A DNA stretch of 55,088 bases from a virus (lineage: Duplodnaviria > Caudoviricetes), in IMG/VR virus record IMGVR_UViG_3300013137_000002, positions 1 through 55,088 of that record. One strand, given 5' to 3'. Below, piece by piece: positions 124 to 52,174 of this stretch. The notes under the pieces are model-generated. The model made no database searches. It saw only the letters and a list, made by a program, of their open reading frames with translations, and had not been told where the DNA came from. The position numbers and the translations under genes are program-made. Within the stretch, counting starts at the first letter, position 1, and each line of letters starts with the position of its first letter.

Positions 124-2619
124 GAAGGGATAACTACAACTCAATTAAGAGCTAGAATGTCCCTTGCTAAGGCCGAACAAAGGTCTGGAGATACTACAGA
201 AGCTTTAAGATTAAAAGACAAGGGCTATTCGAATATGGAAATCGGGAGGAGAATGGGAATAAATGAATCCTCCGTCCGTTCTCTTCTCGACCCTGCCCTC
301 GCTGAAAGAGCTTCAATCACTAGGGCTACATCTAATATGCTTAAAGAAAGTGTTGATGAGAAAAGATTTATAGACATTGGTGCTGGAGTTGAGAATCATG
401 TTGGTGTAAGCCGAACAAAATTAAATACTGCCGTTGCCGAACTTCAAGAACAAGGATATAAAATTCATCGTGTAAACGTTGAACAAATTGGAATACCTGG
501 TCAATTTACAATTGTAAAAGTTTTAGGTGCTCCAGATACCACTTGGCAAGAAGTTGTAAAAGATGTAAGTAAAATTCAAAGTCTAACTGCTAAATCAGAT
601 GATTTTGGAAGAACTTATACTTCGGTTTTAGGTCTAGAACCTATACAAAGTGTTAGCTCTGATCGAATTAAAGTTAGATTTTCTGAAGAAGGTGGTAATT
701 CTAAAGATGGAGTTATTGAACTTCGTCGTGGAGTTAAAGATTTGGATCTCGGTGGTTCTCAATATGCTCAAGTTCGTATTGGAGTAGATGGTACACACTT
801 TCTGAAAGGTATGGCTATTTATAGCGATGACCTTCCAAAAGGAGTTGATATCGTCTTTAACACTAATAAATCAAAAGATGTTGGTAAAAGTGGTGCTATG
901 AAAAAAATGAAAGAAATTGCTGATGATACTGGTGAAAAAAATATTGATCCTGATAATCCTTTTGGATCTACAATTAAAAGACAAAAAGGCGCTCTTAATA
1001 TTGTAAATGAAGAAGGAGATTGGGATACATGGTCTAAAACTATCTCTTCGCAAATCCTTTCTAAACAAACAGTTCCATTAGCCAAAGCTCAACTTGATTT
1101 AGCATTTAAACAAAAACAGGAAGAGTATGATGAAATTATGTCTTTAACAAATCCTGTTGTTAAGAAACAACTTCTCCTTGCTTTTGGTGATGATTGTGAT
1201 GCTTCGGCAGTGCATCTTAAAGCTGCTGCCCTTCCAAGACAGGCATCTAAAGTAATCCTTCCTATTCCTAATATGAAGGAAACAGAGGTTTATGCTCCAA
1301 CCTATAAAGATGGAGAAAGCGTTGTTTTAATTCGACACCCACATGGTGGAACCTTTGAAATACCCCAGCTCACAGTAAACAACCGATCAAAAGCAGCTCA
1401 AGCTGTTATGAAGAATGCTCCTGATGCCATTGGAATAAATCCAAAAGTTGCGCAAAAACTTTCTGGAGCAGACTTCGATGGTGATGCTGTTATAGTAATT
1501 CCAAATAATAGAGGTTTAATAAAGACTTCTGCTTCTTTAAAAGGTCTTGAAAATTTTGATCCTATTACGGCATACAGAATTCCTGAGGGTTCAAAGATAC
1601 CGCCAATAAAACCAAAAACTAAACAGACTAAAATGGGAGAAGTTTCAAATCTAATTACCGATATGACGATTAAGGGTGCTAATGTTGATGAAATTGCTAG
1701 AGCAGTTAGACATTCAATGGTTGTTATAGATTCAGAGAAACATAATTTGGACTATAGACAATCATACATTGATCATGGAATAGCTGCTCTTAGCGAAAAG
1801 TATCAAAATACTAAACGTGGTGGTGCTTCTACTTTAGTTTCTAAAGCTTCTTCTGAAACTAGGGTCGATGCTCGTAAACCAAGAAGTACAAAAGAAGGCG
1901 GTCCTATAGATACTGAGACTGGTATGAAAGTTTATACAAAAACTGGAGAGTCTTATGTAGATTCTAAAGGTCGTACAATAACAAGGAAAATTGCTTCTAC
2001 AAAGATGGCAGAAGAAACTGATGCTTTTAAACTATCTTCTGGTAGACCTATTGAGGAAGTTTATGCAGGCTATGCAAACAACTTAAAGAATTTAGGGAAC
2101 ACAGCTAGGAAGAATGCCATTACAACAATCCCTACTCCTTATAGCCCATCAGCAAGACAGGCCTATGATAAGGAAGTTGCCACCCTCACCGCTCATTTAA
2201 ACACCGCCCTTATGAATAAACCAGTTGAAAGGCAAGCACAGATTCTTGCTAATTCGGTTGTTACAAGAAAACGTCAAGCGAATCCTAATATGGATCCTGA
2301 TGACATTAAAAAAGTCAAAAACCAAGCCCTCGCCGAAGCAAGAACTAGGACTGGCGCAAAGAAGCAACAGATAGAAATCACAGATAAAGAATGGGAAGCT
2401 ATCCAAGCTGGCGCTGTTAGTCCATCTAAATTGACACAGATACTACAAAACACAAATCTTGATAGGATAAAACAATTGGCTACACCAAGAACAACAATCA
2501 TGATGTCACCATCAAAGACAAGTCGTGCTAAATCAATGCTTGCTTCTGGGTATACTCAAGCTGAAATAGCAGATGCTCTTGGTGTTTCTACTTCAACGTT
2601 AGCAAATGCGTTGAAATGA
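1..2619 (+). CDS. Putative single-subunit two-barrel (YonO/QDE-1-like) RNA polymerase with N- and C-terminal HTH segments; true start at 54933, 883 aa across the junction
   Basis: Motifs in order: QVRIG...LKGM, VLIRHPH, LSGADFDGD (DFDGD at 1471-1485), GEVSNLIT, HSMVVIDSEK. HTH-like YSNMEIGRRMGINESSVRSLL and YTQAEIADALGVSTSTL. 54933-54965 (11 codons) plus 1-156 (52 codons) is in frame with the ATG at 157. Confidence 0.75.
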   Translation, partial: RRSGRYPWGSGEDPYQRAVSFRSHIQELRDKGLSDVEIARGEGITTTQLRARMSLAKAEQRSGDTTEALRLKDKGYSNMEIGRRMGINESSVRSLLDPALAERASITRATSNMLKESVDEKRFIDIGAGVENHVGVSRTKLNTAVAELQEQGYKIHRVNVEQIGIPGQFTIVKVLGAPDTTWQEVVKDVSKIQSLTAKSDDFGRTYTSVLGLEPIQSVSSDRIKVRFSEEGGNSKDGVIELRRGVKDLDLGGSQYAQVRIGVDGTHFLKGMAIYSDDLPKGVDIVFNTNKSKDVGKSGAMKKMKEIADDTGEKNIDPDNPFGSTIKRQKGALNIVNEEGDWDTWSKTISSQILSKQTVPLAKAQLDLAFKQKQEEYDEIMSLTNPVVKKQLLLAFGDDCDASAVHLKAAALPRQASKVILPIPNMKETEVYAPTYKDGESVVLIRHPHGGTFEIPQLTVNNRSKAAQAVMKNAPDAIGINPKVAQKLSGADFDGDAVIVIPNNRGLIKTSASLKGLENFDPITAYRIPEGSKIPPIKPKTKQTKMGEVSNLITDMTIKGANVDEIARAVRHSMVVIDSEKHNLDYRQSYIDHGIAALSEKYQNTKRGGASTLVSKASSETRVDARKPRSTKEGGPIDTETGMKVYTKTGESYVDSKGRTITRKIASTKMAEETDAFKLSSGRPIEEVYAGYANNLKNLGNTARKNAITTIPTPYSPSARQAYDKEVATLTAHLNTALMNKPVERQAQILANSVVTRKRQANPNMDPDDIKKVKNQALAEARTRTGAKKQQIEITDKEWEAIQAGAVSPSKLTQILQNTNLDRIKQLATPRTTIMMSPSKTSRAKSMLASGYTQAEIADALGVSTSTLANALK

Positions 2620-33292: not shown

Positions 33293-33388
33293 ATGATAAA
33301 TAGTTTAAATTGCTTATTAGCACAAATATCATTATGGATATCTAGTTCTAGCATAGCAAAGGTACTTATATTAATAATAACAACTTAA
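33293..33388 (+). CDS. 31-aa hydrophobic peptide (not in ORF track)
   Basis: MINSLNCLLAQISLWISSSSIAKVLILIITT; AAAGGAG RBS; sits between promoter 33240 and a hairpin. Confidence 0.5.
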   Translation: MINSLNCLLAQISLWISSSSIAKVLILIITT

Positions 33389-33455
33389 AAACAAAAGATA
33401 AGAACTTAATAGGTTCTTATTCTTTTACCCTCGCGAAAATTACATAGAGTATAAT

Positions 33456-33555
33456 GAAGAGAAAACGACGTAGTGATACGAATGTAGGTACTTGAGAGAA
33501 GGTCCCCGCGTCGTTTGGTAATAAGAAGCAGTTCGACACTCGCTGACATCTCTTT
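33456..33555 (+). ncRNA. Putative structured ncRNA A
   Basis: Starts at the promoter's GAA. AAGAGA/TCTCTT closing stem, AAACGACG/CGTCGTTT inner stem, GTTCGA T-loop-like element, T-rich tail, no RBS-led ORF. Confidence 0.55.
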
Positions 33556-33667
33556 ATATTTTTGTCTCGAGTAGAAAGGAAAAGGCCATGTGAATTTATC
33601 ATGTCGCTTCGTACTATCTCGCTAGAATTACATTTTAGTATAAAATTTTTGGAAAGGAGGCTTGGTA

Positions 33668-34129
33668 ATGATAGTTAAGAATCTAATTGAAAATGTGATT
33701 TCCAAGGATAAGTCAAAGGAGGAACTATGTTATTTAGCCTTCGTTGATAGTCTAACGAAAACATATAATCGTAACATGTTAGAGGAGTTTCGTAAGGAAT
33801 TTGACTCTATGGATATTTTTGTTACGATAATTGACATAGATAATCTCAAAATGATTAATGACACAAAAGGTCATGAAGAAGGCGACATATTCATCAAAAG
33901 CTTTGCAGAAGAAATTAAGAAATATTCAGAATGGGTATTTAGACTTGGTGGTGATGAGTTTCTTGTTCTTAACAAATCTCATATCACTTTTAATGTACTT
34001 GGTATATCATATGGAACTATATTTAAGCTGTCAAATATGTCTTTAAATGAGGCAATGCGTATGGCTGATTTCTTAATGTACAAAAACAAAAGGGAAAGGA
34101 GTATTTCTAATGAAAAAAGAGATACTTGA
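33668..34129 (+). CDS. Stand-alone GGDEF diguanylate cyclase
   Basis: DSLTKTYNR, IDIDNLKMINDTKGHEEGD, RLGGDEF, ADFLMYKNK. Confidence 0.92.
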   Translation: MIVKNLIENVISKDKSKEELCYLAFVDSLTKTYNRNMLEEFRKEFDSMDIFVTIIDIDNLKMINDTKGHEEGDIFIKSFAEEIKKYSEWVFRLGGDEFLVLNKSHITFNVLGISYGTIFKLSNMSLNEAMRMADFLMYKNKRERSISNEKRDT

Positions 34130-34251: not shown

Positions 34252-35517
34252 ATGATTACTGAATTCACCAAGGAAGCACGTATGGCTGATTTAATTGATA
34301 TTCTAAATGACGTTGCACGTAAGTATTATACGCCTAATAATTATGACGACGAGTCGCCAATAAGTGATGCTCAGTACGACAGATATTTAAGCGAGTTAAT
34401 ACATCTTGAGGCTGAAACGGGTATAAGATTAGAAGGCTCTCCAACAATGAAAGTTGGATTTACAGAACCAGAAGAAGGAAAGATTAAGCATTACTCACCA
34501 ATTCTTTCACTTAAAGATACAAAAAATATTGATGAGCTGTTACGTTTTCTTGGTGAGAAGGAAGGACTCTTATCCTGGAAGCTTGATGGGGTAAGTATTG
34601 TTTTATATTACTCATTTGGTACTCTACAGCAAGCTGTTAGTCGAGGAGACGGACATTATGGTAAAGATATTACTAAAAACGTTGTGATGATGCGTCATGT
34701 CCCTATGACTATTCCGATTAAAAATAACGTCATTGTCCGCGGAGAAGGATGCATGTCTCTTAAAGACTTCGAACAGATTAAAAAGACAAGAGAAGGAGAG
34801 AAGTATAGTAATCCACGTAACATGACAAGCGGGCTTATTAATGCTACAAGGACAACGAATGTTTTGTTACGACATATGAACTTCATAGCCCATTCGGTTA
34901 TCTTACTCGAAGGGCACGGACGTGATATCTCAACAAGACACAAACAACTTGGACATCTTAAGACTCTTGGATTTAGAATTGTACCACATACAAAAGTGCT
35001 TAACTTCGAACTTAATGCTGAGATTGATAAGTACACTAGAGAAGTTGAGAATTTTGAGTTCCCAGTTGATGGTCTTGTGTTAACACTGAATGATATTCAC
35101 TATGGGGATTCATTAGGTGCCACAGCAAAGTTTCCTAAGCACAGTATGGCGTTCAAATGGCCCGATGAGAAAGCGACAACGACAGTAACAGGAATGAAAT
35201 GGAGTGTAAGTACGACTGGATTAATAACGCCAGTTGTCTTATTTACACCTGTTTGGCTTGAGGGAACAGAAGTTAAGCAAGCAAATCTCCATACCTTAAA
35301 GATATTTGAGGGGTTGGTTATAGGCGTAGGTGATACAATCGAGATATTTAAGGCCAACAAAATTATTCCTGAGGTATCGGAGAATTTAACCCGAAGTGGT
35401 ACTGAGGAAATTCCAAGGACTTGTCCTGTATGTGGTTCACCAACACATATTATCGTAACAGACAAGACACGTAAATTATATTGTTATCCTTGTGGTGGAA
35501 AAGAAGACTTTAAGTAG
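34252..35517 (+). CDS. ligA: NAD-dependent DNA ligase, C-terminally truncated
   Basis: Domain Ia (YY...SPISDAQYD), KLDG, SRGDG..GKDIT, VRGE, NPRN, DGLV, AFKW, OB fold, CPVC..CxxC; no HhH or BRCT. Confidence 0.92.
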   Translation: MITEFTKEARMADLIDILNDVARKYYTPNNYDDESPISDAQYDRYLSELIHLEAETGIRLEGSPTMKVGFTEPEEGKIKHYSPILSLKDTKNIDELLRFLGEKEGLLSWKLDGVSIVLYYSFGTLQQAVSRGDGHYGKDITKNVVMMRHVPMTIPIKNNVIVRGEGCMSLKDFEQIKKTREGEKYSNPRNMTSGLINATRTTNVLLRHMNFIAHSVILLEGHGRDISTRHKQLGHLKTLGFRIVPHTKVLNFELNAEIDKYTREVENFEFPVDGLVLTLNDIHYGDSLGATAKFPKHSMAFKWPDEKATTTVTGMKWSVSTTGLITPVVLFTPVWLEGTEVKQANLHTLKIFEGLVIGVGDTIEIFKANKIIPEVSENLTRSGTEEIPRTCPVCGSPTHIIVTDKTRKLYCYPCGGKEDFK

Positions 35518-35543
35518 GTCGCAGAAATTACACAGAGTTTAAT

Positions 35544-35628
35544 GAAGAGATGTAGACTTAATAGGTCGAGCACTAATTAAAAAGATTAGTGACATAACGA
35601 TGCGTGCGTTATGGTAATACATCTCTTC
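35544..35628 (+). ncRNA. Putative cloverleaf ncRNA B
   Basis: Perfect 11-bp closing stem GAAGAGATGTA/TACATCTCTTC enclosing three hairpins; begins at the promoter's GAA and ends in a T-tract. Confidence 0.7.
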
Positions 35629-35662
35629 TTTATATTTTTAAAAACGAAAGGAGAAAGATTGT

Positions 35663-36508
35663 ATGAACGGAAGAGGTCTCACAGAAATAACAAAAAACCT
35701 CGGGGGAATAATTTCTAAAAATAGTCCTACTATTCTAACTGGAGTAGCAGTGGCTGGACTCGTAACAACAACGATAATGGGAATTAGAGCAACCCCCAAA
35801 GCACTTTCGATCATCGACGACTTTGTATGGAGTAAATATGAGGAGGAAGTCGATAATCCGGAAGAAATGTCATTCGCCGAATGGCTTGGCGTAGACACTG
35901 ATGGATATTCTTGGAGGGATAAGGCTAATTACTTATCTAAGAGAGAAACCATTAAACTTACATGGAAGACGTATTTACCAACAATTGCCGTTGGAGCGGT
36001 TACAATCGCTTGTATCATTGGTGCAAATCATATTTCTTTAAGGCGTAATGCTGCCCTGGCTAGTATCTATGGCCTTACAGAAGCAGCATTCAAGGAATAT
36101 CAGACAAAAGTTGTTGAGACTCTTGGTAAGAATAAGGAACTCAAGATACGAGATGAGATTTCGGCAGATCGTGTTAAGAGAAATCCTCCCGGTATGAATG
36201 AGGTTATTCTAACAGGTAGAGGACCAGTGTTATGTTTTGACAGTCTAAGTGGAAGATATTTCAGAAGTGACATCGAACAGATTCGCAGAGTTGTCAATGA
36301 GTTAAATCGTAATATGCTCAGTGATATGTTCCTGACACTCAATGAGTTATATTATGGTCTTGGATTAGCTGGGATAGCTCTTGGGGACCAGATGGGCTGG
36401 GATATTGATAAAGGAATGGTTGAGATAAGTTTCAGTACTCAACTCACAGAAGAAGGGGAACCTTGTTTAGTGCTTAATTATAGCATCGAACCAAAATATA
36501 TAAAATAA
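35663..36508 (+). CDS. DUF6353-like phage protein, paralog 1
   Basis: NSPTILTGVAVAG...ATPKA...RRNAALASIY...LNELYYGLG..GW. Confidence 0.75.
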   Translation: MNGRGLTEITKNLGGIISKNSPTILTGVAVAGLVTTTIMGIRATPKALSIIDDFVWSKYEEEVDNPEEMSFAEWLGVDTDGYSWRDKANYLSKRETIKLTWKTYLPTIAVGAVTIACIIGANHISLRRNAALASIYGLTEAAFKEYQTKVVETLGKNKELKIRDEISADRVKRNPPGMNEVILTGRGPVLCFDSLSGRYFRSDIEQIRRVVNELNRNMLSDMFLTLNELYYGLGLAGIALGDQMGWDIDKGMVEISFSTQLTEEGEPCLVLNYSIEPKYIK

Positions 36509-36768: not shown

Positions 36769-37320
36769 ATGAAAGTATTAAGAAAAAGAGAATTGGAAGT
36801 TAAGAACGTTAGAGTTGGTGACCAAATTGTCATTCAGTTGACTGGATTTGGAGAATTTACAGCGACTGCACAGAAAATTACTGAAAAGGGAACGCTGTTT
36901 TTGTTCGATGATTGTGTTACGGAGCGGCCTATGAACGAGAAAAACACCAACGAAGGTGGTTATAAGAAATCAGATCTTTGTAAGTGGATTAACACTGTGT
37001 TATTGAAGGCGTTCCCTAAAGACATGATAAAAAGAATTAGCGACCTCAGTATTCCTACATACGGTCAGATGTTCGGCCATGATGATTGGTATAACCGTGT
37101 AATGGAGCCTGATAATGACGAGCAACTTCCTCTTATGAAAAAGAGAAAGAATCGCATTGCTGATTTCAATGATACCTACGAATGGTACTGGATGCAAAAC
37201 GCAACTAAAAAAGAAGTATCTGCGGCTCATTTCGCTCGTGTGGCCAACTATGGCGATACGAGCTGCAACGGCGCGTCGTACTCGATTGGGGTTCGTCCGG
37301 CATTCGTGTTGGTTAATTAA
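36769..37320 (+). CDS. DGR target 2: stand-alone CLec-like (DUF6273-like) protein
   Basis: NTNEGGYKKSDLCKWIN...WYWMQNA...SAAHFARV...GVRPAF; its 3' end matches the TR. Confidence 0.9.
   Translation: MKVLRKRELEVKNVRVGDQIVIQLTGFGEFTATAQKITEKGTLFLFDDCVTERPMNEKNTNEGGYKKSDLCKWINTVLLKAFPKDMIKRISDLSIPTYGQMFGHDDWYNRVMEPDNDEQLPLMKKRKNRIADFNDTYEWYWMQNATKKEVSAAHFARVANYGDTSCNGASYSIGVRPAFVLVN
37219..37300 (+). repeat. DGR variable repeat VR2 (remote)
   Basis: 82-bp match to TR with 13 mismatches at TR adenines plus one synonymous T>G. Confidence 0.93.
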
Positions 37321-37324
37321 ATCT

Positions 37325-37341
37325 CCGCCCCTTGTGGGCGG
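37325..37341 (+). promoter_or_regulatory. DGR target-recognition hairpin after VR2
   Basis: CCGCCC-CTTGT-GGGCGG; same loop as the VR1 hairpin. Confidence 0.75.
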
Positions 37342-37378
37342 CTACATAAACTTAAAAATTGAAAGGAGATTCATCACT

Positions 37379-38896
37379 ATGCCAAATAAACATGCTGTAA
37401 AGATTATTGCGCTAGATTTCGACGGAACGCTTGTTCAGAACAAATATCCTGAAGTAGGCGAACCCATTATGAAAAATGTCAAGAAAATCAAAGAGGAAAT
37501 CGCCAAAGGTGCCAGGGTTATTCTCTGGACAAATCGCGTTGACGAATATTTACAGGCGGCTGTCGATTTCTGCAATGATCAAGGTATTCGCCTGGAAGCT
37601 GTTAACGAGAATTTACCGGAGGTAATTGCTGAGTTTGGTGGCAATCCAAGAAAGATATCCGCCAATGAGTACTGGGACGACAGAGCTGTAAATATGTCTG
37701 AGAAGGATATTGGCGAGTTCTCAGATGGGTATCATACGTTCAACGACCTATACAAGCAGCGGTTATATTTATCGGCAGCTTTATTTAATTCCTATAAAGG
37801 TCGAGCATGGAAATCCAGAAAGCATTCGGACGGACAGCCTTGTTTTTGTGGAGAGTACTTTATTGTCGGTATTGACACTCCTTTGGGACCATATACATAT
37901 CACTACGAGAATTGTCATTGGGATATGTTCAACTGCAAGGAACTGGATATAGCTCCTGAATGGGATGGTCACACTGATAAGGATGTACATCGGCTTGATT
38001 CCTTATGTAGAGAAGGACATTCTCCAAAGGATCCTGAAATAGCCTGTGAGTGTAAAAGACCGCAAAAGCGTAAGCTATTTTCCCAGGTAATGTACTATAT
38101 TTGTAGGTTCTTCCGACAAATAAGAAATCGTATAATGTATATTTTCAGACCGAGAACAGGTATGACAGGCTGGGCGTATAAAGAGGTTGAGTTGGCCTGT
38201 AAGAGTGAAAGGGAAGATAGTAAAACTCCCGATGGCGATTGGGATTATGGATGCGCTTGTTATGGAAGTGCCCTAAAGGCTTTCCGAAGTCTTACTAAAG
38301 ACGGTCATAGTGGAATGAGTATTGGTTTTACTCAGAATATTCTGAACCGACTTATTGATGGAAGACCGTTAACACCTATTGGTGACACATCTGATATTTG
38401 GAATGATATTTCAGACATAAGTGGTCTTAAGGGCGAGGAGGTTAACTATCAATGCAAGCGTATGAGCGCTTTGTTCAAGTATGTATATGCGGACGGTAGT
38501 GTGAAATATAAGAACATTGATTCACATTACTGCATCAACATCCACAATCAAAGCACATATCATAGTGGTCTTGTGCAGAGAATTATGGACGAGATGTATC
38601 CGATTACAATGCCTTATATGCCCGGAGAACCTATCAAGGTTTATTGTGATGATATTCTTACTGATAAGAAGAATGGTGATTTTGATACTGTTGCTGTATT
38701 CTATGCAATAAAACCTGATGGCGAGAAGGTCGAAATTAATCGCTTCTTTAAAGAATCCAAATCCGATACCGGCTGGGATGAAATAACGAAAGAGGAATAT
38801 TCTGAACGGAAAGTTATTGCGGAGGACCTTGTAACTCGGATTAAGAAAGAGGTGGATGAGGCCTTTAAGGTACCTCCACATTTAATGACTGAATAA
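37379..38896 (+). CDS. Multidomain protein: HAD-family hydrolase + WDGH-motif domain + C-terminal phage domain
   Basis: IIALDFDGTL...ILWTNR...RKISANEYWDDR; DGYHTFNDLY...TYHY...PEWDGHT; DGHSGMS...PLTPI. Start moved to the ATG at 37379 after a GAAAGGAG RBS. Confidence 0.75.
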   Translation: MPNKHAVKIIALDFDGTLVQNKYPEVGEPIMKNVKKIKEEIAKGARVILWTNRVDEYLQAAVDFCNDQGIRLEAVNENLPEVIAEFGGNPRKISANEYWDDRAVNMSEKDIGEFSDGYHTFNDLYKQRLYLSAALFNSYKGRAWKSRKHSDGQPCFCGEYFIVGIDTPLGPYTYHYENCHWDMFNCKELDIAPEWDGHTDKDVHRLDSLCREGHSPKDPEIACECKRPQKRKLFSQVMYYICRFFRQIRNRIMYIFRPRTGMTGWAYKEVELACKSEREDSKTPDGDWDYGCACYGSALKAFRSLTKDGHSGMSIGFTQNILNRLIDGRPLTPIGDTSDIWNDISDISGLKGEEVNYQCKRMSALFKYVYADGSVKYKNIDSHYCINIHNQSTYHSGLVQRIMDEMYPITMPYMPGEPIKVYCDDILTDKKNGDFDTVAVFYAIKPDGEKVEINRFFKESKSDTGWDEITKEEYSERKVIAEDLVTRIKKEVDEAFKVPPHLMTE

Positions 38897-43546: not shown

Positions 43547-43583
43547 AGTTATATTCGCGAAAACTACAAGGACTATAATGAAG

Positions 43584-43654
43584 AGGTAGTTAGCTCAGTT
43601 GGTTAGAGCGCTAGTATTGACTAGATGTCATCGGTTCGAATCCGATACTAACTC
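43584..43654 (+). tRNA. Atypical tRNA/pseudo-tRNA, anticodon arm 3 nt short, identity undetermined
   Basis: D arm GCTC-AGTTGGTTA-GAGC; T arm ATCGG-TTCGAAT-CCGAT; acceptor AGGTAGT/ACTAACT (1 mismatch); anticodon arm CTAGT-ATTG-ACTAG; no encoded CCA. Confidence 0.75.
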
Positions 43655-43710
43655 TTTCTTTTTTCAATGTAACTATAAACCAAATATTAAATTGTAAAGG
43701 AGAAATTACC

Positions 43711-44664
43711 ATGAAATTAGAAAAAATTACAACCGGTCTGTCGAAATTGACCGGAAAGAGCGGGTTGGTGCTTAAGGCGCATTCCCCTGAAATCTTATTA
43801 GGAATAGGTATTGTTGGTACTGTAGCTTCTACAGTATTAGCTTGCCGCGCAACAATGAAAGTTGAGGGCGTCCTCGACAACCACAAAGAAAAGGTTGACA
43901 AGATAAATTTCGCTTGGCAGAAGGTTCAGGACGGAGAAATTCCTTTGGAAGAGTATTCTGAAAAAGACAAACAGAAGGATCTTGTTGTGACATATTCCCA
44001 GACGGCTGTAGATTTCATCAAACTGTATGGTCCGGCTATAACACTCGGCGTAGCTTCACTCGCATGTATCGTGGCTGGTCATGGAATTATGAAAAAGAGG
44101 AATCTTGCTCTTATGGCTGCATATAAAGCTGTTGAAGAAGGATTTATGGCTTATCGTAAGAGAGTCATTGAGGAGCATGGAGAAGAAGCTGACTACATGT
44201 ACAAAAATGGTCTGCGCAAGCAGGAAATAACCGAAATGGCTTACACGGATGCAGAAGGCGTCAAGCATAAAGCTCAGAAGAAGCAGGTACTTGTTGAGGA
44301 TCCAAACGGCTTAAGCGTATACGCACGGTTCTTTGACGAAAGCTGTGAACAGTGGTCAAAGAATCCGGAATACAATCTGATGTTCCTGCGTAGTCAGCAG
44401 AATTACTATAATGATATGCTCAAAGCCCGTGGTCATGTTTTCTTAAATGAAGTATATGATGCGCTTGGTATTCCGAGAACACAGGCTGGTGCCGTTGTTG
44501 GTTGGGTACTTGGTGAAAGTGGAGATAACTGCATCGACTTCGGTATATTTGATGGAGACAGACCGAGAGCCAGAGACTTCGTCAATGGTTATGAACGTTC
44601 AATTCTCCTTGACTTCAATGTTGACGGGGTAATCTATGACCTTTTTACGAAAAAGAAGGACTAA
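43711..44664 (+). CDS. DUF6353-like phage protein, paralog 2
   Basis: HSPEILLGIG...KRNLALMAAY...GHVFLNEVYDALG...GW...LDFNVDG. Confidence 0.78.
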   Translation: MKLEKITTGLSKLTGKSGLVLKAHSPEILLGIGIVGTVASTVLACRATMKVEGVLDNHKEKVDKINFAWQKVQDGEIPLEEYSEKDKQKDLVVTYSQTAVDFIKLYGPAITLGVASLACIVAGHGIMKKRNLALMAAYKAVEEGFMAYRKRVIEEHGEEADYMYKNGLRKQEITEMAYTDAEGVKHKAQKKQVLVEDPNGLSVYARFFDESCEQWSKNPEYNLMFLRSQQNYYNDMLKARGHVFLNEVYDALGIPRTQAGAVVGWVLGESGDNCIDFGIFDGDRPRARDFVNGYERSILLDFNVDGVIYDLFTKKKD

Positions 44665-48017: not shown

Positions 48018-48024
48018 GGCCTTT

Positions 48025-48210
48025 TGTTACACTTTACTGTAACAACTGTTACACTTTTGTTACACTTTTAAAAATCCGAAAAGCCTTGATATGACTGGGT
48101 TTGAGGTGGTTTTGTTACACTTGTTACACTTTTTTCTTTAAGACTTTATAAAAAAATAATAAAATATAAAAAGTTTTAAAAGTGGAGTGTAACATGTAAC
48201 AAGTGTAACA
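48025..48210. repeat. Iteron-like repeat cluster, candidate replication origin
   Basis: TGTTACACT at 48025, 48047, 48058, 48113 and 48122; inverted AGTGTAACA at 48186 and 48202; partial TGTAACA at 48038 and 48195; AT-rich spacer 48131-48180. Confidence 0.75.
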
Positions 48211-48241
48211 GATCAAAATGTATTTTGAGAGGAGGGCGCCC

Positions 48242-51200
48242 GTGGATTTCTATCAAATTTCTACAGAACTAACTAAAAATGGTATGAAAATATATCCCGA
48301 CTTCAAAGCTTGTCGTTCGAAAGACTTGATGATTCGCGGGAGATCATTCTATGCAATATGGGACGATGATAAACAGATGTGGTCGACCGACGAATATGAT
48401 GTTCAAAGATTAGTTGACCAAGAGCTTGAAGAATATAGAAAAGAAATACAAAATAAATTTCCAGATAGGATAATCGACGTCAAACGAATGTTAAATTTTT
48501 CTTCTAATATGTGGAAAAACTATAGAGCGTTCGTTAAAGAAATGTCTGATAATTCACGTCAATTGGATAACCATCTTACTTTTTCAAACAGTGATGTTAA
48601 AAAAACAGACTATGTCAGTAGAAGATTACCTTATCCTCTTGAAGAAGGGTCTATTGCTGCTTATAATGAACTTATGAGTATTCTCTATGAGCCTGATGAA
48701 AGAGCGAAACTTGAATGGGCGATTGGAGCCATTGTTGCTGGAGATGCAAAAAATATTCAAAAATTTATTGTATTATATGGTGAGGCTGGCTCTGGTAAAT
48801 CCACATTTCTTAATATTGTGCAAAAATTATTTGAAGGATATTATACCACGTTCGAAGCGAAGGCCTTAACAAGCACGAGTAATTCTTTTGCGACGGAAGT
48901 CTTTCGTTCTAATCCTTTAATAGCCATCCAACATGATGGAGACCTTTCTAAAATTGAGGATAATACAAAGTTGAACTCAATAATATCCCATGAGGAGATG
49001 ACGATGAATGAGAAGTATAAAGCGTCGTATATGGCGCGTTCAAACGCATTTCTTTTTATGGGAACAAATCGCCCAGTTAAGATAACAGATGCTAAGTCCG
49101 GAATTATTAGGAGACTAATTGACGTAAGACCAAGTGGTAATAAAATACCTAGCAAAAGATATCACACATTAATGAGTCAGATAGAGTTTGAGTTAGGAGC
49201 CATAGCATGGCATTGCTTACAACTTTATCATGAGATGGGTAAGAATTACTATGCGAGTTACCGTCCGTTAGAGATGATATTTCAGACCGATGTATTCTTT
49301 AACTTCATTGAGGCGCAGTATCATATTTTTAAAGAGCAAGATGGAGTTAGCCTTTCACAAGCATATGAAATGTATAAGACATATTGTGACGAAGCCCTAG
49401 TTGACTTCAAATTACCTCGTCATAAATTTAGGGAGGAGATGAAATCATATTTTAAGACGTTCTATGACGTAACTCGAATTGATGGTAAGCAAGTTCGTAG
49501 TTATTATGGTGGATTTCTTTCTGATAAGTTTAGCATAATTGAAAATAAAAAAGAGGAAGCACCATATTCCCTCGTGTTAGACGATTCTGTTTCTATTCTT
49601 GATGAGATGTTAGCAGATTGTCCTGCACAATATACTAATGATGAAGAAACACCAGAGAAGAAATGGGATGAAGTAACAACAAAGCTATCAGATATTAATA
49701 CACATGAGCTCCATTATGTTAAAACCCCATTAAATCATATTGTTATTGACTTCGACTTAAAGGATGAAGCCGGTAACAAATCAATGGAAAAGAACCTTGA
49801 AGAAGCAAGTAAATGGCCTACCACTTATGCCGAATTTAGCAAGAGCGGAGCAGGTATTCATCTTCATTATATTTATGATGGGGACGTTCAGAAGCTTAGT
49901 CGCGTTTATGCCGACGGTATTGAAGTTAAGGTATTTACAGGAAAAGCCTCACTAAGAAGAAAACTATCTAAATGCAACAACTCACCAGTTGCTACAATTA
50001 ACAGTGGCCTTCCCTTGAAAGGAGAAAAAATGATTAATTTTGATGTGGTTCAAAGTGAAAAAGGGTTAAGAGCCCTAATTACTAGAAATCTTAACAAAGA
50101 GATTCATCCTGGAACGAAACCTAGCATTGACTTTATCCATAAAATATTAGAAGATGCGTATAAGTCTGGGATGAGTTATGATGTAACAGATTTGCGCCCG
50201 AAGATTTTAGCTTTTGCAAATAATTCGTCACATCAAGCAGATTACTGTATTAAATTGGTTCAAAAGATGAAGTTTGCATCAGAAGAACCAAGCGATGTTC
50301 CTGGGGAGTATCAAAGTGATGATCTTATATTCTATGATGTCGAAGTATTTCCAAATTTATTTATAATTGTTTGGAAAAGAGAAGGCGGCATTAAAGTTAA
50401 GATGATTAACCCGGCACCAAAAGATGTTGAAGAATTGATGAAATTTAAACTTGTTGGTTTTAATTGCCGTAGGTATGATAATCATATCTTATATGCTCGT
50501 TATGTAGGATATGATAACAAACAACTCTTTGATCTAAGCCAAAAAATTATAGGTGAAAGCAGAAATTGTCTATTTGGAGAAGCTTATAATATATCCTATA
50601 CAGATGTTTATGATTTCTCTTCGAAGAAGCAAAGTCTTAAGAAGTTTGAGATTGAGCTCGGAATTCACCATCAAGAACTTGGTCTTCCCTGGGAACAACC
50701 AGTTCCAGAAGAATTATGGGATAAAGTTGCGGACTATTGCGGAAATGATGTTGATGCAACAGAGGCGGTATTCCATGATAGAAAGCAAGACTTTATAGCA
50801 AGACTCATATTAGCAGATTTAAGTGGTCTCACTCCAAATGACACAACGCAGATGCACACAGCCAAGATTATCTTTGGAAACGACAAGAGGCCACAAGATA
50901 AGTTTATTTATACTGATTTGTCGAAAGAGTTTCCTGGATATGCATTTGAGAACGGAAAGAGTACTTATTGGGGCGAAGAGACAGGAGAAGGTGGATATGT
51001 TTATGCTGAACCCGGTATGTATTCTAATGTGGCTGTTCTTGACGTCGCATCAATGCACCCAACAAGTGCGATTGAGATGAACATATTTGGCCCATATACT
51101 AAGAATTACAAGGAACTTCTTGATGCTCGTATTGCTATTAAACATAAAGATTATGATAGAGCTAGAGGAATGCTTGGTGGAATACTATCTAATTATTTAA

Positions 51201-52174
51201 CAAGTGATGGTGATTCGGGAGCATTATCTTATGCCTTGAAGATTGTTATCAATATTGTTTATGGCTTGACATCGGCGAAGTTTGAGAACAAATTCAAAGA
51301 TCCACGTAATAAAGATAACATTGTTGCAAAGCGTGGGGCATTGTTTATGATTTCATTGAAACACGCCGTCGAAGAACAAGGATTTAGTGTTATTCATATT
51401 AAAACAGACTCGATTAAAATACCAAATGCAACAAATGAAATTATAGGTTTTGTTATGGAGTTTGGTAAACAGTATGGATATACATTTGAACATGAATCCA
51501 CATATGATAGAATGTGTCTTGTAAACGATGCTGTATATATTGCCCGATATTCAACATCAGAGAAATGTGAAGAACTTTATGGATATGTTCCAAGTGAGGT
51601 TAAGAAACATCCTGGTGAGTGGACAGCAACCGGAGCACAGTTTGCTCAACCATATGTATTTAAGTCTTTGTTCTCTCATGAAACAATAACGTTTGAAGAC
51701 ATGTTCGAGACGAAGACAGTTACCGTTGGAGCATTATATTTAGATATGAATGAATCGCTTTCAGAAGACGAACATGATTATCATTTTGTTGGAAAGGCAG
51801 GGGCATTCTGTCCCGTTCGTTCTGGTTGTAGTGGTGGAATGTTACTTCGGGTAAGTGATGATAAGTATTATGCGGCAACTGGTAGTAAAGGTTATCGTTG
51901 GCTTGAAGCGGAAATGATTAAGGCATTAGGAAGACAAAATGATATAGACCGCGATTATTACAACGCTTTAGTTGACGCTGCAGTAGACAGCATTTCAAAA
52001 TTTGGAGATGTGGAATGGTTTATGTCTAACTCTGAAAAACCAAAACCACAAAGGGATGTTCCTCCATGGCAAATGGAGTGTGGTAAGGATGATTGTTATA
52101 ATTGTCCTAATTGGATAACAAATACCGGGACCGAAAATAAATGCAAATTGGGCTATGAAGCTCAACCATTTTGA
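48242..52174 (+). CDS. SF3 helicase-primase-DNA polymerase fusion
   Basis: Walker A GEAGSGKST; AEP-like DFDLKD and SKSGAGIHLHY; exonuclease DVEVF, GFN.RRYD, YCGNDV; PolB-like DVASMHP, KIVINIVYG, KTDS. GTG start after GAGGAGG. Confidence 0.9.
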   Translation: MDFYQISTELTKNGMKIYPDFKACRSKDLMIRGRSFYAIWDDDKQMWSTDEYDVQRLVDQELEEYRKEIQNKFPDRIIDVKRMLNFSSNMWKNYRAFVKEMSDNSRQLDNHLTFSNSDVKKTDYVSRRLPYPLEEGSIAAYNELMSILYEPDERAKLEWAIGAIVAGDAKNIQKFIVLYGEAGSGKSTFLNIVQKLFEGYYTTFEAKALTSTSNSFATEVFRSNPLIAIQHDGDLSKIEDNTKLNSIISHEEMTMNEKYKASYMARSNAFLFMGTNRPVKITDAKSGIIRRLIDVRPSGNKIPSKRYHTLMSQIEFELGAIAWHCLQLYHEMGKNYYASYRPLEMIFQTDVFFNFIEAQYHIFKEQDGVSLSQAYEMYKTYCDEALVDFKLPRHKFREEMKSYFKTFYDVTRIDGKQVRSYYGGFLSDKFSIIENKKEEAPYSLVLDDSVSILDEMLADCPAQYTNDEETPEKKWDEVTTKLSDINTHELHYVKTPLNHIVIDFDLKDEAGNKSMEKNLEEASKWPTTYAEFSKSGAGIHLHYIYDGDVQKLSRVYADGIEVKVFTGKASLRRKLSKCNNSPVATINSGLPLKGEKMINFDVVQSEKGLRALITRNLNKEIHPGTKPSIDFIHKILEDAYKSGMSYDVTDLRPKILAFANNSSHQADYCIKLVQKMKFASEEPSDVPGEYQSDDLIFYDVEVFPNLFIIVWKREGGIKVKMINPAPKDVEELMKFKLVGFNCRRYDNHILYARYVGYDNKQLFDLSQKIIGESRNCLFGEAYNISYTDVYDFSSKKQSLKKFEIELGIHHQELGLPWEQPVPEELWDKVADYCGNDVDATEAVFHDRKQDFIARLILADLSGLTPNDTTQMHTAKIIFGNDKRPQDKFIYTDLSKEFPGYAFENGKSTYWGEETGEGGYVYAEPGMYSNVAVLDVASMHPTSAIEMNIFGPYTKNYKELLDARIAIKHKDYDRARGMLGGILSNYLTSDGDSGALSYALKIVINIVYGLTSAKFENKFKDPRNKDNIVAKRGALFMISLKHAVEEQGFSVIHIKTDSIKIPNATNEIIGFVMEFGKQYGYTFEHESTYDRMCLVNDAVYIARYSTSEKCEELYGYVPSEVKKHPGEWTATGAQFAQPYVFKSLFSHETITFEDMFETKTVTVGALYLDMNESLSEDEHDYHFVGKAGAFCPVRSGCSGGMLLRVSDDKYYAATGSKGYRWLEAEMIKALGRQNDIDRDYYNALVDAAVDSISKFGDVEWFMSNSEKPKPQRDVPPWQMECGKDDCYNCPNWITNTGTENKCKLGYEAQPF

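What the first reader, a model, noticed from the sequence alone, without database searches (positions are those of the whole stretch)
35519..35640. Cloverleaf non-coding RNA that is not a tRNA
Seen: from the promoter's G (35544), a perfect 11-bp stem GAAGAGATGTA/TACATCTCTTC encloses three hairpins: GACTT-AAT-AGGTC (35555-35567), CACTAAT-TAAAAAG-ATTAGTG (35571-35591) and CATAACG-ATGCGTG-CGTTATG (35593-35613). A T-rich tail follows. The unit is 85 nt, forms a four-way junction and has no TTCGA loop and no ORF. Inference: a tRNA-shaped small RNA of unknown class.
Basis: partly seen in the sequence, partly recalled or inferred. Interest (0 to 1): 0.72.

Follow-up and report, generated by a model that had tools for sequence, protein, structure and literature searches.

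The report
Cloverleaf RNA inside phage promoter-terminator cassette
A very stable 85-base cloverleaf-shaped RNA fold sits directly behind a phage promoter, but it is one orphan filling of a reusable "closing stem plus U-rich tail" slot that related phages fill with plain hairpins or anticodon-less tRNA look-alikes, so its own role is still unproven.

Summary
Bases 35544-35628 (+) fold into an 11-bp closing stem around three hairpins (MFE -30.4 kcal/mol, z = -6.3, 0 of 200 shuffles as good). It is not a tRNA and matches no Rfam family.

It is not an isolated oddity. The window is a complete 55-kb phage that encodes a YonO-like putative RNA polymerase. A conserved promoter, TCGC-N4-ATTACA-N5-TATAAT, recurs in it and in cultured Streptomyces, Arthrobacter and Gordonia phages.

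In 78 of 289 distinct promoters, the bases right after TATAAT (usually GAAGAG) pair with a downstream CTCTTC that is followed by a T-rich tail. This helix encloses anything from a tetraloop to tRNA-like RNAs.

U1 is one such cassette, lying between the ligase stop codon and a DUF6353 gene. Relatives with about 80% protein identity keep the promoter, tail and ribosome-binding site at this site. They carry a plain hairpin, a three-way junction with a T-arm, or another fold instead.

No homolog of the U1 interior was found anywhere, so covariation cannot be tested. No RNA data exist.

Best reading: a terminator-type, 5'-end-closing cassette with a lineage-specific payload. Moderately interesting; the cassette family is more notable than U1 itself.

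The parts
34252..35517 (+). NAD-dependent DNA ligase gene. Its stop codon abuts the promoter, with no terminator in between.
   Evidence: Pfam DNA_ligase_aden 7.7e-47 and DNA_ligase_OB 3.1e-17; sequence.
35519..35543 (+). Phage-specific promoter motif TCGCAGAAATTACACAGAGTTTAAT (TCGC-N4-ATTACA-N5-T[A/T]TAAT).
   Evidence: Repeated on the + strand of the window. Found in 71 IMG/VR stretches. Present in cultured phages Scarif (12 sites), Dynamite (10), Kenosha (8) and D_HF5_2C (6), all forward, with 0 reverse and 0 control matches.
35544..35554 (+). P1 5' strand, GAAGAGATGTA. G35544 is the inferred transcription start.
   Evidence: Fold. The helix starts at the first base after the hexamer in 65 of 78 cassettes. 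Shine-Dalgarno sequences lie within 6 nt of the hexamer in 14 of 182 other promoters.
35555..35567 (+). P2 hairpin GACTT-AAT-AGGTC: 5 pairs including one G.U wobble.
   Evidence: The wobble pair favours the + strand RNA.
35571..35591 (+). P3 hairpin CACTAAT-TAAAAAG-ATTAGTG.
35593..35613 (+). P4 hairpin CATAACG-ATGCGTG-CGTTATG.
35618..35628 (+). P1 3' strand, TACATCTCTTC.
35629..35639 (+). U-rich tail TTTATATTTTT. It is conserved as TTATATTTTTAA in orthologous sites.
   Evidence: Alignment of four orthologous sites. The same kind of tail follows a conventional hairpin after a gene at about 36723.
35647..35653 (+). Ribosome-binding site AAAGGAG of the downstream gene. It stays unpaired in the folds.
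35663..36508 (+). DUF6353 / phrog_2152 gene (function unknown, N-terminal hydrophobic helix), the first gene behind U1. No promoter motif of this class lies between 35527 and about 38900.
   Evidence: Pfam 3.6e-78; PHROG; promoter lists.
33431..33567 (+). Sibling cassette U2. It has the same promoter (33431-33455). The RNA runs 33456-33555 with the same 5' GAAGAGA and 3' TCTCTT ends, followed by the tail ATATTTTT. The interior is different and includes a T-arm-like hairpin.
   Evidence: Six homologs give 22 predicted pairs, 10 of them with compensatory changes.
43555..43669 (+). Sibling cassette with a tRNA-like payload. The promoter is 43555-43579 and the RNA is 43580-43657: GAAGAG, then the tRNA-like body, then CTCTTT, then a T-run. 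It lies upstream of the second DUF6353 paralog (43711-44664).
   Evidence: ARAGORN calls tRNA-???. Rfam tRNA scores 51.4 bits.; Pfam.
157..2619 (+). YonO-like putative single-chain RNA polymerase with helix-turn-helix domains at both ends. It is the inferred reader of the promoter.
   Evidence: phrog_4291, 1157.8 bits. Sigma-70 region 4 and HTH matches at both ends. 50-56% identity to proteins of Streptomyces, Arthrobacter and Gordonia phages. Passages of bioRxiv 10.1101/842583.

Best explanation
U1 is the RNA encoded by a closed-end cassette, a modular unit used across a large group of about 55-kb siphophages that carry a YonO-like putative RNA polymerase.

How it is built. A phage-specific promoter (35519-35543) fires at or next to G35544. 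The first 11 transcribed bases pair with 35618-35628. That helix is followed at once by a U-rich tail.

What is conserved. The helix plus tail is the conserved core, and it looks like this phage's ordinary intrinsic terminators.

What it does (inferred).
- It ends transcripts that arrive from the GGDEF-ligase operon, which has no terminator of its own.
- It ends part of the transcripts started at its own promoter, giving an RNA of about 85-95 nt whose two ends are locked in one helix.
- The transcripts that read through carry it as a 5'-end-sequestering leader of the DUF6353 operon.

The payload. The three inner hairpins fill the terminator loop. This slot turns over fast in evolution. Relatives fill it with nothing, with tRNA-like RNAs that have a tetraloop in place of the anticodon loop, or with other conserved folds. 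The U1 payload is lineage-specific. It is not a tRNA, and no function of its own has been shown.

Shown versus inferred. Shown: the fold, the promoter family, the cassette architecture, and payload replacement at the orthologous site. Inferred: the start site, termination, read-through, and which polymerase reads the promoter.
For: **Fold.** z = -6.3, with 0 of 200 shuffles as good. The fold is kept in longer contexts with the ribosome-binding site free.

**Promoter.**
- It recurs on the + strand of the window.
- 71 IMG/VR stretches have the promoter followed by GAAGAG.
- Four of five cultured phages tested have 6-12 forward matches each, with 0 reverse and 0 control matches.
- Those hosts are high-GC Actinobacteria, while this phage is AT-rich. 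That fits a phage-encoded polymerase.

**Architecture.**
- 36 of 63 de-duplicated GAAGAG units have a helix of at least 6 bp from the first bases plus a tail with at least 7 T in 12. The mean in 50 shuffles was 0.88, maximum 3.
- With a relaxed promoter pattern, 78 of 289 distinct promoters carry a cassette.
- The helix starts at the first base after the hexamer in 65 of 78 cassettes.
- Pair types vary in step: at +4, G-C 44, A-T 15, G-T 18; at +5, A-T 61, G-C 11; at +6, G-C 59, A-T 8.
- G.T pairs are frequent, so the pairing is at the RNA level on the + strand.

**Start site.** In 14 of 182 non-cassette promoters, the Shine-Dalgarno core lies within 6 nt of the hexamer at proper spacing from the start codon. 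These bases must therefore be transcribed.

**Orthologous site.** Relatives with about 80% identity in the DUF6353 protein keep the promoter, the TTATATTTTTAA tail and the ribosome-binding site. L227 and L229 carry an 11-bp plain hairpin. L230 and L231 carry a three-way junction with a canonical T-arm, there also directly after the ligase. L232 carries another fold.

**Terminator grammar.**
- A similar tail follows a conventional hairpin after a gene at about 36723.
- 17 of 78 cassettes are followed within a few bases by a second promoter, so they are stand-alone units.
- Promoters of DUF6353-linked cassettes rarely have a T-run upstream (14% against 44%). The cassette is therefore the first terminator after the upstream gene. 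Here the ligase stop abuts the promoter.

**Link to DUF6353.** 21 of 64 cassette promoters with a downstream ORF precede a DUF6353 gene, against 2 of 182 non-cassette promoters. Both of those exceptions are really cassettes.
Against: - No RNA data exist for this phage, so no start, end or discrete product has been seen.
- No homolog of the interior was found, so P2-P4 have no covariation support. They rest on thermodynamics alone.
- A 63-nt multibranched loop and a U-tract interrupted by A (UUUAUAUUUUU) are unusual for an efficient intrinsic terminator. The simple consensus scan did not list it.
- Whether a YonO-like polymerase responds to hairpin terminators is unknown.
- The DUF6353 operon has no other promoter of this class, so strong termination would silence it.
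- The helix filter requires pairing, so the pair-type counts are partly circular. The shuffle control addresses existence only.
- Many cassette sequences come from related phages and are not independent. About 10 of the 21 DUF6353-linked ones are a single type.
- Not all DUF6353 genes have a cassette. None of 8 viral relatives had a cassette directly upstream.
- Lactococcus phage 1706, which has the polymerase at 38% identity, has no match to the promoter pattern.
Confidence: 0.5

Rival explanations
1. Trans-acting small RNA. The cassette is only an expression vehicle. The three-hairpin payload is the functional product, for example a tRNA-shaped decoy or a protein partner (possibly of DUF6353) that acts in trans during infection.
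For: - Sibling cassettes carry payloads that are clearly selected as RNAs. The tRNA-like inserts reach the Rfam tRNA threshold in 5 of 15 loci scanned, plus the window's own.
- 18 of 75 distinct cassettes have a T-arm-like hairpin, against about 1 in shuffles.
- The U2 family has 10 of 22 pairs with compensatory changes.
- 17 of 78 cassettes are stand-alone units followed by another promoter.
- Three hairpins is the commonest shape (27 of 75), and U1 has it.
- Cassettes are strongly linked to DUF6353 genes.
Against: - The U1 payload is an orphan. The covariance model search of 97 sources (0.9 Mb) found only U1 itself. Short-word BLAST found nothing. Five exact-pattern scans of viral contigs found nothing.
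- It has no T-loop or D-loop signature, and its junction linkers (0/3/1/4) differ from those of tRNA (2/1/4-5/0).
- Relatives at about 80% identity do without it. A plain hairpin sits at the same site.
- No complementarity to a target was identified.
- The DUF6353 model gave no RNA-binding fold.
Confidence: 0.2
2. Pure 5' stabiliser. The transcript reads through completely. The helix that locks the 5' terminus only protects the DUF6353 operon mRNA from 5'-end-dependent decay, as 5' stem-loops do in Gram-positive bacteria with RNase J (recalled knowledge). The U-rich tail is incidental or a spacer.
For: - The helix starts exactly at the first transcribed base in 65 of 78 cassettes.
- There is no second promoter before any of the 21 DUF6353 genes behind cassettes, so read-through must occur.
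- The ribosome-binding site is left free.
- The hosts of this phage group, Firmicutes and Actinobacteria, both have RNase J (recalled).
Against: - It does not explain the strongly enriched T-rich tail directly after the helix, which is conserved in sequence at orthologous sites.
- It does not explain the stand-alone units that are followed at once by another promoter.
- It does not explain why the upstream gene so often lacks its own terminator.
Confidence: 0.15
3. Sensing cis-regulator. The four-way junction is an aptamer or thermosensor, like a riboswitch, that switches termination or translation of DUF6353.
For: It is a structured 5' leader with a terminator-like end upstream of a gene. Four-way junctions occur in some riboswitch aptamers (recalled).
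Against: - There is no Rfam match, even at E <= 10, beyond weak chance hits.
- No alternative anti-terminator pairing appears. The MFE equals the centroid, and the ribosome-binding site is never sequestered.
- All stems are perfect helices with small loops and no conserved internal loops.
- The interior is replaced by a plain hairpin in close relatives.
Confidence: 0.05
4. DNA-level element or chance. The inverted repeats form a cruciform, a recombination site or a miniature mobile element, or the fold is an accident of AT-rich intergenic DNA.
For: - The unit has 11-bp terminal inverted repeats and is 85 bp long.
- Payload swapping between identical flanks suggests recombination.
- An unrelated repeat with the same 11-mer arms exists in a Peregrinibacteria genome.
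Against: - G.U pairs are frequent in the helices of the family (31 of 65 at +1, 18 of 78 at +4), and P2 of U1 has one. These are mismatches in DNA and on the other strand.
- The + strand folds better than the minus strand.
- There is a single copy in the genome.
- z = -6.3 argues against chance.
- The Peregrinibacteria element shares no promoter, tail or interior.
Confidence: 0.05

Closest known systems
Intrinsic (Rho-independent) terminators and promoter-proximal terminated transcripts, such as lambda PR'-tR' 6S RNA (recalled knowledge)
   Same: A helix is followed at once by a U-rich tract. It lies a short distance behind a promoter and ahead of genes that can only be expressed by read-through. 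The same tail type follows ordinary hairpins after genes in this phage.
   Different: The helix starts at the very first transcribed base. It encloses a 63-nt three-hairpin insert instead of a 3-8-nt loop. The U-tract is interrupted by A. No antiterminator is known, and termination is untested.
tRNA (Rfam RF00005) and the tRNA-like cassettes of the same phage group
   Same: U1 has a cloverleaf four-way junction of similar size and a long acceptor-like helix made of the 5' and 3' ends. It uses the same promoter, leader and tail as the window's tRNA-like gene at 43580-43657, and has the same position upstream of a DUF6353 paralog.
   Different: It has no T-loop (TTCRA) and no D-loop GG. Its junction linkers are 0/3/1/4 rather than 2/1/4-5/0. 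ARAGORN and the Rfam tRNA model do not detect it.
5'-terminal stem-loop mRNA stabilisers of Gram-positive bacteria and their phages, such as the ermC and aprE leaders and the SP82 stabiliser (recalled knowledge)
   Same: The structure lies at the extreme 5' end of an mRNA, upstream of a free ribosome-binding site.
   Different: Those elements are simple hairpins or polypurine tracts without a U-tail. Here the helix is terminator-like and carries variable payloads.
YonO-dependent late promoter of Bacillus prophage SPbeta (Forrest et al. 2017, PMC5467207; passages read)
   Same: A YonO-type polymerase starts transcription upstream of an unannotated non-coding RNA that precedes the first protein gene of the operon.
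   Different: YonO is only distantly related to this phage's protein. I found no match to this promoter motif between yonN and yonK.
Type III toxin-antitoxin loci such as ToxIN (recalled knowledge)
   Same: The gene order is promoter, structured RNA, terminator-like element, protein gene. The terminator could set the RNA-to-protein ratio.
   Different: There are no tandem RNA repeats. The DUF6353 model shows no nuclease fold. The RNA payload is not conserved with the protein.
The 50-bp intergenic motif containing TATAAT noted in Gordonia cluster DJ phage Vardy (PMC9671010; passages read)
   Same: It is probably the same promoter family. Kenosha, also a Gordonia phage of the Deejayvirinae, has 8 matches to the promoter pattern.
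   Different: That note reads the motif as a sigma-70 -10 promoter. It reports no tRNAs and no structured RNAs behind it.

Membership tests
tRNA (RF00005) | Cloverleaf with four helices meeting at one junction | tested here: met
   The RNAfold MFE and centroid give P1 plus three hairpins.
tRNA (RF00005) | T-arm with a 7-nt T-loop TTCRANN, and a D-loop with conserved GG | tested here: not met
   The loops are AAT, TAAAAAG and ATGCGTG. There is no TTCRA hairpin.
tRNA (RF00005) | 7-nt anticodon loop with U33, and standard junction spacing (2/1/4-5/0) | tested here: not met
   The P3 loop is UAAAAAG, with A at the second position. The linkers are 0/3/1/4.
tRNA (RF00005) | Detection by ARAGORN or the Rfam covariance model | tested here: not met
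   ARAGORN finds only 43583-43655. Rfam at the gathering threshold finds only that one. No RF00005 hit appears at E <= 10 in 35400-35760.
Any Rfam 15 family | Score at or above the family's gathering threshold | tested here: not met
   The best hit is SpF56 sRNA at 26 bits against an 80-bit threshold, E = 0.037. It spans the promoter and only part of U1.
Intrinsic terminator | Stable helix followed at once by a U-rich tract | tested here: met
   An 11-bp perfect helix ends at 35628, and TTTATATTTTT follows at 35629-35639.
Intrinsic terminator | Compact hairpin (loop of a few nt) with a G+C-rich stem | tested here: not met
   The loop is a 63-nt three-hairpin insert. The stem has 4 G-C pairs out of 11. 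The consensus scan does not list it.
Intrinsic terminator | RNA 3' ends at the U-tract in vivo or in vitro | not testable with these tools
   No RNA run holds this sequence.
Closed-end promoter cassette of the YonO-like-polymerase phage group (defined here) | Promoter TCGC-N4-A..ACA-N5-T[A/T]TAAT directly upstream | tested here: met
   35519-35543.
Closed-end promoter cassette of the YonO-like-polymerase phage group (defined here) | Helix of at least 6 bp that starts at the first bases after the hexamer (usually GAAGAG/CTCTTC) | tested here: met
   U1 has an 11-bp helix starting at offset 0. Across the family the figure is 65 of 78.
Closed-end promoter cassette of the YonO-like-polymerase phage group (defined here) | T-rich tail directly after the helix | tested here: met
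   The tail is TTTATATTTTTA. It is conserved at orthologous sites.
Riboswitch or attenuator with alternative structures | Mutually exclusive terminator and anti-terminator (or sequestering) folds, and a conserved aptamer | tested here: not met
   A single dominant fold is seen. The ribosome-binding site is free in all contexts. The interior is not conserved.

The most novel reading that the evidence does not exclude
The cassettes are a modular, recombination-shuffled expression system for a repertoire of small tRNA-shaped RNAs that include U1, the anticodon-less tRNA look-alikes and U2. These RNAs would act in trans. They could be decoys or adaptors for host tRNA-handling or tRNA-targeting defence enzymes, or RNA partners of the DUF6353 membrane proteins they so often precede. 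U1 would then be a new, fast-evolving member of that arsenal rather than a decorated terminator.
Probability: 0.15. Interest if true: 0.8.

Novelty: new variant of a known kind. Interest (0 to 1): 0.55.

Why it matters
For U1 alone, this is a well-supported structured RNA with no relatives, whose shape is real but whose function is open.

For the family, there are four points.
- A phage supergroup known from many cultured actinophages, and reported to have no tRNA genes, shares one promoter across host phyla.
- That promoter probably belongs to the group's own YonO-like polymerase, whose promoter is undefined in the papers I read.
- The promoter drives small structured RNAs locked between the first transcribed bases and a U-tailed 3' strand. 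Among them are tRNA-like RNAs whose anticodon loop is replaced by a tetraloop.
- This gives a concrete promoter and start-site prediction for a poorly understood class of polymerase.

It also provides testable RNA genes in cultured phages (for example Gordonia phage Kenosha, at about 33.35 kb). And it offers a natural series at one locus, from plain hairpin to three-way junction to cloverleaf, for asking what the payloads add.

Tried and rejected
**Homolog searches for the U1 interior (all negative)**
- BLAST in five related phage records matched only the promoter and tail parts.
- Exact scans of viral contigs found nothing with a 24-mer, a P1-gap-P1 pattern or two 18-mers.
Of the loci returned, only L049 passed the promoter/closing-strand filter, and it has a different interior.
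- The P1-gap-P1 scan of genome contigs gave 5 hits: four copies of an unrelated repeat in one Peregrinibacteria assembly, and one further unrelated sequence from an uncultured-bacterium assembly.
- A covariance model built from U1 alone and run over 97 sources (896,698 bases) found only U1 itself. The next hits had E = 0.42 and 0.66, through P1 only.
- Short-word BLAST against all held loci found nothing longer than 13 nt.
It returned 15 loci, none with U1.

**Expression**
- No RNA holder was listed among 5 public runs.
- Laid contigs of four DNA runs showed no variant inside U1.
- One contig of a roughly 90%-identical relative (X5) matched only 35515-35546. It then ran on with letters resembling the L232-type insert, but it may come from another promoter copy.
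- None of this bears on expression.

**Other dead ends**
- Rfam at a permissive threshold gave only chance-level hits around U1 and U2.
- DUF6353: an AlphaFold2 model from 18 sequences had mean pLDDT 70.5 and pTM 0.35. Foldseek against the PDB gave no match at E <= 0.001, best 0.09. A full-text search for 'DUF6353' found 0 papers.
- The polymerase had no relative among PDB sequences.
- The SPbeta yonN-yonK gap has no match to this promoter motif.

**Rejected model.** I considered a start site about 7 nt after TATAAT, as for sigma-70. GAAGAG would then be untranscribed locally, and the helix would stop only upstream transcripts. I set this aside because Shine-Dalgarno sequences lie within the first 6 nt in 14 of 182 promoters. 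It is not excluded.

**Literature.** Searches found no description of these cassettes or of anticodon-less tRNA-like RNAs in this phage group. The search covers only the held library, and supplements were closed.

Full report
**1. The observation**

- GAAGAGATGTA (35544-35554) pairs perfectly with TACATCTCTTC (35618-35628).
- This stem encloses three hairpins:
  - GACTT-AAT-AGGTC, with 5 pairs, one of them a G.U wobble.
  - CACTAAT-TAAAAAG-ATTAGTG.
  - CATAACG-ATGCGTG-CGTTATG.
- The junction linkers are 0, 3, 1 and 4 nt, and TTTATATTTTT follows.

RNAfold gives this four-way junction as both MFE and centroid. The energy is -30.4 kcal/mol, against -13.3 +/- 2.7 for 200 dinucleotide shuffles (z = -6.32), and none of the shuffles folded as well.

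The fold survives in a 147-nt context and a 157-nt context. In both, the ribosome-binding site of the next gene stays unpaired. The opposite strand folds less well (-24.5 kcal/mol).

ARAGORN finds one tRNA-like gene in the window, but at 43583-43655, not here. Rfam at gathering thresholds finds only that same gene. A permissive Rfam scan of 35400-35760 gives five weak hits. The best is 26 bits against an 80-bit threshold, and none is tRNA. Only mechanical ORFs of 20-35 aa overlap the unit.

**2. What the window is**

The window is a complete 55,088-bp virus record with direct terminal repeats. All large genes lie on the + strand.
- Gene 157-2619 matches phrog_4291, named 'RNA-dependent RNA polymerase', at 1157.8 bits. 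It carries sigma-70 region 4 and HTH matches at both ends.
- It is 50-56% identical to proteins of Streptomyces, Arthrobacter and Gordonia phages, and 38% identical to that of Lactococcus phage 1706.
- Passages of bioRxiv 10.1101/842583 describe this protein as a putative YonO-like polymerase with a DxDGD motif and terminal HTH domains. They call it a signature of a supercluster of actinophages plus Lactococcus and Faecalibacterium phages. They say cluster BI phages have no predicted tRNA genes.

U1 lies between an NAD-dependent ligase gene (34252-35517) and a DUF6353 gene (35663-36508).

**3. The promoter**

The 25 bases before G35544 belong to a repeated motif, TCGC-N4-ATTACA-N5-T[A/T]TAAT.
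- It occurs about nine times on the + strand between 31 and 44 kb of the window.
- The pattern followed by GAAGAG occurs in 71 IMG/VR stretches, mostly on 50-60-kb contigs.
- With up to two mismatches it occurs 12, 10, 8 and 6 times, always forward, in the cultured phages Scarif, Dynamite, Kenosha and D_HF5_2C. The reverse strand and the reversed-pattern control give zero. Phage 1706 has none.
- A genome announcement for Gordonia phage Vardy noted a 50-bp intergenic motif with TATAAT and read it as a sigma-70 promoter (PMC9671010, passages).

One motif shared by phages of high-GC Actinobacteria and by this AT-rich phage is most simply explained by the conserved phage polymerase. That is an inference.

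**4. The cassette**

A second unit in the window, U2, has the same promoter (33431-33455) and its RNA spans 33456-33555.
- It has the same first bases (GAAGAGA) and the same end (CATCTCTT followed by TATATTTTT). Its interior is different.
- The window's tRNA-like gene has the same build: promoter 43555-43579, then GAAGAG, the tRNA-like body, CTCTTT and a T-run.

Of 63 de-duplicated units behind the strict promoter, 36 have a helix of at least 6 bp that begins within the first three bases, followed by at least 7 T in 12. Shuffles averaged 0.88, with a maximum of 3 in 50 rounds.

With a relaxed promoter pattern over all held related loci, 78 of 289 distinct promoters carry such a cassette. For that count I left out the chance-hit loci and duplicate small loci.
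- The helix begins at the very first base after the hexamer in 65 of 78.
- Pair types change in step. At +4: G-C 44, A-T 15, G-T 18. At +5: A-T 61, G-C 11. At +6: G-C 59, A-T 8.
- G.T pairs are common, which fits RNA on the + strand and not DNA.
- These counts are conditioned on pairing, and many sequences are related, so they illustrate rather than prove.

The 75 distinct cassettes are 26-238 nt long (median 83).
- Their MFE folds have one hairpin in 16, two in 21 and three in 27.
- 18 contain a T-arm-like hairpin, against about 1 in shuffles.
- ARAGORN of them tRNA, 6 with an undefined two-base 'anticodon'.
- In the folds of the DUF6353-linked cassettes, the anticodon arm of the tRNA-like ones ends in a four-base loop such as UUCG or AUUG.
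- The Rfam tRNA model passes its threshold in 5 of 15 loci scanned.
- The U2 type has six homologs, with 22 predicted pairs of which 10 show compensatory changes.

So the slot does carry RNAs that are under selection in other cases.

**5. Where transcription starts**

In 14 of 182 promoters without a cassette, the Shine-Dalgarno core lies within the first six bases after the hexamer, at the proper distance from the start codon of an ORF of at least 58 codons. One of the 14 may be a mis-scored cassette.

These bases must be in the mRNA. A sigma-70-like start about 7 nt downstream is less likely but not excluded.

**6. The orthologous site in relatives**

Eight viral relatives of the DUF6353 gene (35-75% identity) have no U1 upstream.

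Among 15 metagenome relatives, those at about 80% identity that include upstream sequence show the same promoter variant, the same TTATATTTTTAA tail and the same ribosome-binding site. Their inserts differ:
- L227 and L229 have an 11-bp plain hairpin with two G.U pairs.
- L230 and L231 have a three-way junction with a canonical TTCGG-TTCGAAT-CCGAA arm, there also directly after the ligase.
- L232 has another fold.
- L233, L236 and L238 have no cassette.
- L226, L228, L234 and L235 are cut off before the site.

The helix and tail are therefore the conserved part, and the interior is replaced on a short evolutionary scale.

Every search for the U1 interior failed. P2-P4 have no comparative support.

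**7. Links to neighbouring genes**

Among promoters with a recognisable downstream ORF, 21 of 64 with a cassette precede a DUF6353 gene, against 2 of 182 without one. Both exceptions are in fact cassettes. One fell just under the tail threshold. The other is a unit upstream of a second cassette. About 10 of the 21 are one type from related phages, so there are roughly a dozen independent cases.
- None of the 21 has a second promoter before the gene, whereas 17 of the other 57 do.
- Promoters of DUF6353-linked cassettes rarely have a T-run upstream (14% against 44%).
- In the window, the ligase stop abuts the promoter.
- A similar tail (TATATATTT) follows a conventional hairpin after a gene at about 36723.

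**8. Explanation**

I read U1 as a terminator-type closed-end cassette with three inferred roles:
- Its helix and U-rich tail end transcripts coming from the GGDEF-ligase operon.
- They stop some of the transcripts made at its own promoter, releasing an RNA of about 85-95 nt with both ends paired.
- They form the sequestered 5' end of read-through mRNA for DUF6353 and the genes behind it.

The three hairpins are a lineage-specific payload with no shown function.

Points against this reading:
- There are no RNA data.
- A multibranched 63-nt loop and an interrupted U-tract are unusual for a terminator.
- The polymerase's response to terminators is unknown.
- DUF6353 depends on read-through.

The rivals are a trans-acting RNA payload, a pure 5' stabiliser, a sensing leader, and a DNA-level element or chance. 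The first two are compatible with parts of the main reading.

**9. Comparison and novelty**

U1 works like an intrinsic terminator or promoter-proximal attenuator, and like a 5' stem-loop leader. It is shaped like a tRNA, but it fails every tRNA membership test except the junction topology.

The closest published hints are two:
- The TATAAT-containing motif in phage Vardy.
- The remark that YonO of SPbeta starts transcription upstream of an unannotated non-coding RNA (PMC5467207, passages).

I found no paper describing these cassettes or the anticodon-less tRNA-like RNAs. That covers the held library only, and supplements were closed.

**Verdict.** U1 is real and orphan, and is best filed as a new variant of known kinds. 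The cassette family is the more interesting result.

Noticed in passing
window 43555-43669: A tRNA-like gene scores 51.4 bits on the Rfam tRNA model. Its anticodon arm ends in a four-base loop (CTAGT-ATTG-ACTAG), so there is no normal anticodon; ARAGORN reports 'tRNA-???'. It uses the same promoter, GAAGAG leader and T-run trailer as U1, and it precedes the second DUF6353 paralog. The counterpart in relative G001 (CTGGT-ATTG-ACCAG) keeps the loop and covaries in the stem.
   Followed up: partly
window 33431-33567: U2 is a roughly 100-nt structured RNA behind the same promoter, with a T-arm-like hairpin (AGCAG-TTCGACA-CTCGCT). It is conserved in at least five other phage contigs, with 10 of 22 pairs showing compensatory changes, and it has no Rfam match. 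In relative G004 it sits directly after the ligase, in the place U1 occupies here.
   Followed up: partly
L042, L043, L097, L104, L085 and others (IMG/VR loci); L248 about 2639-2715 (= NC_048793.1 about 33351-33430): Many related phages encode tRNA-like RNAs whose anticodon loop is replaced by a tetraloop (UUCG, GAAA, GCAA) and whose acceptor stem is extended by leader-trailer pairing. One lies in an unannotated gap of the cultured Gordonia phage Kenosha, between gp39 and gp40.
   Followed up: partly
window 157-2619: A YonO-like putative single-chain RNA polymerase with HTH and sigma region 4-like domains at both ends. The shared promoter motif TCGC-N4-ATTACA-N5-TATAAT-G is a concrete candidate for its recognition sequence and start site.
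   Followed up: partly
window 48020-48215: An iteron-like array lies just upstream of the primase-polymerase gene (48218-52174). GTTACAC occurs at least five times as a direct repeat, and its complement GTGTAAC occurs two or three times. It may be a replication origin.
   Followed up: no
window 37157-38896: A 579-aa protein combines a WDGH domain (8e-38) with a Tad3 type I Thoeris-inhibitor domain (2.1e-28). It lies in the operon headed by U1.
   Followed up: no
window 33662-34129: A small (155-aa) phage protein with a GGDEF diguanylate-cyclase domain (8e-18) lies directly upstream of the ligase. Relatives G001 and L008 have one too.
   Followed up: no
L277, L279, L280, L281 (one Candidatus Peregrinibacteria assembly): A roughly 100-bp repeat present in at least four copies has 17-bp terminal inverted repeats that happen to begin with the same 11-mer as U1's stem. 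It has no promoter motif, tail or interior in common, so it is unrelated.
   Followed up: partly
window 35663-36508 and 43711-44664: Two DUF6353 (phrog_2152) paralogs each sit directly behind a structured-RNA cassette. The AlphaFold2 model has long N-terminal helices and a confident C-terminal alpha/beta domain (residues about 185-280), with no PDB fold match.
   Followed up: partly
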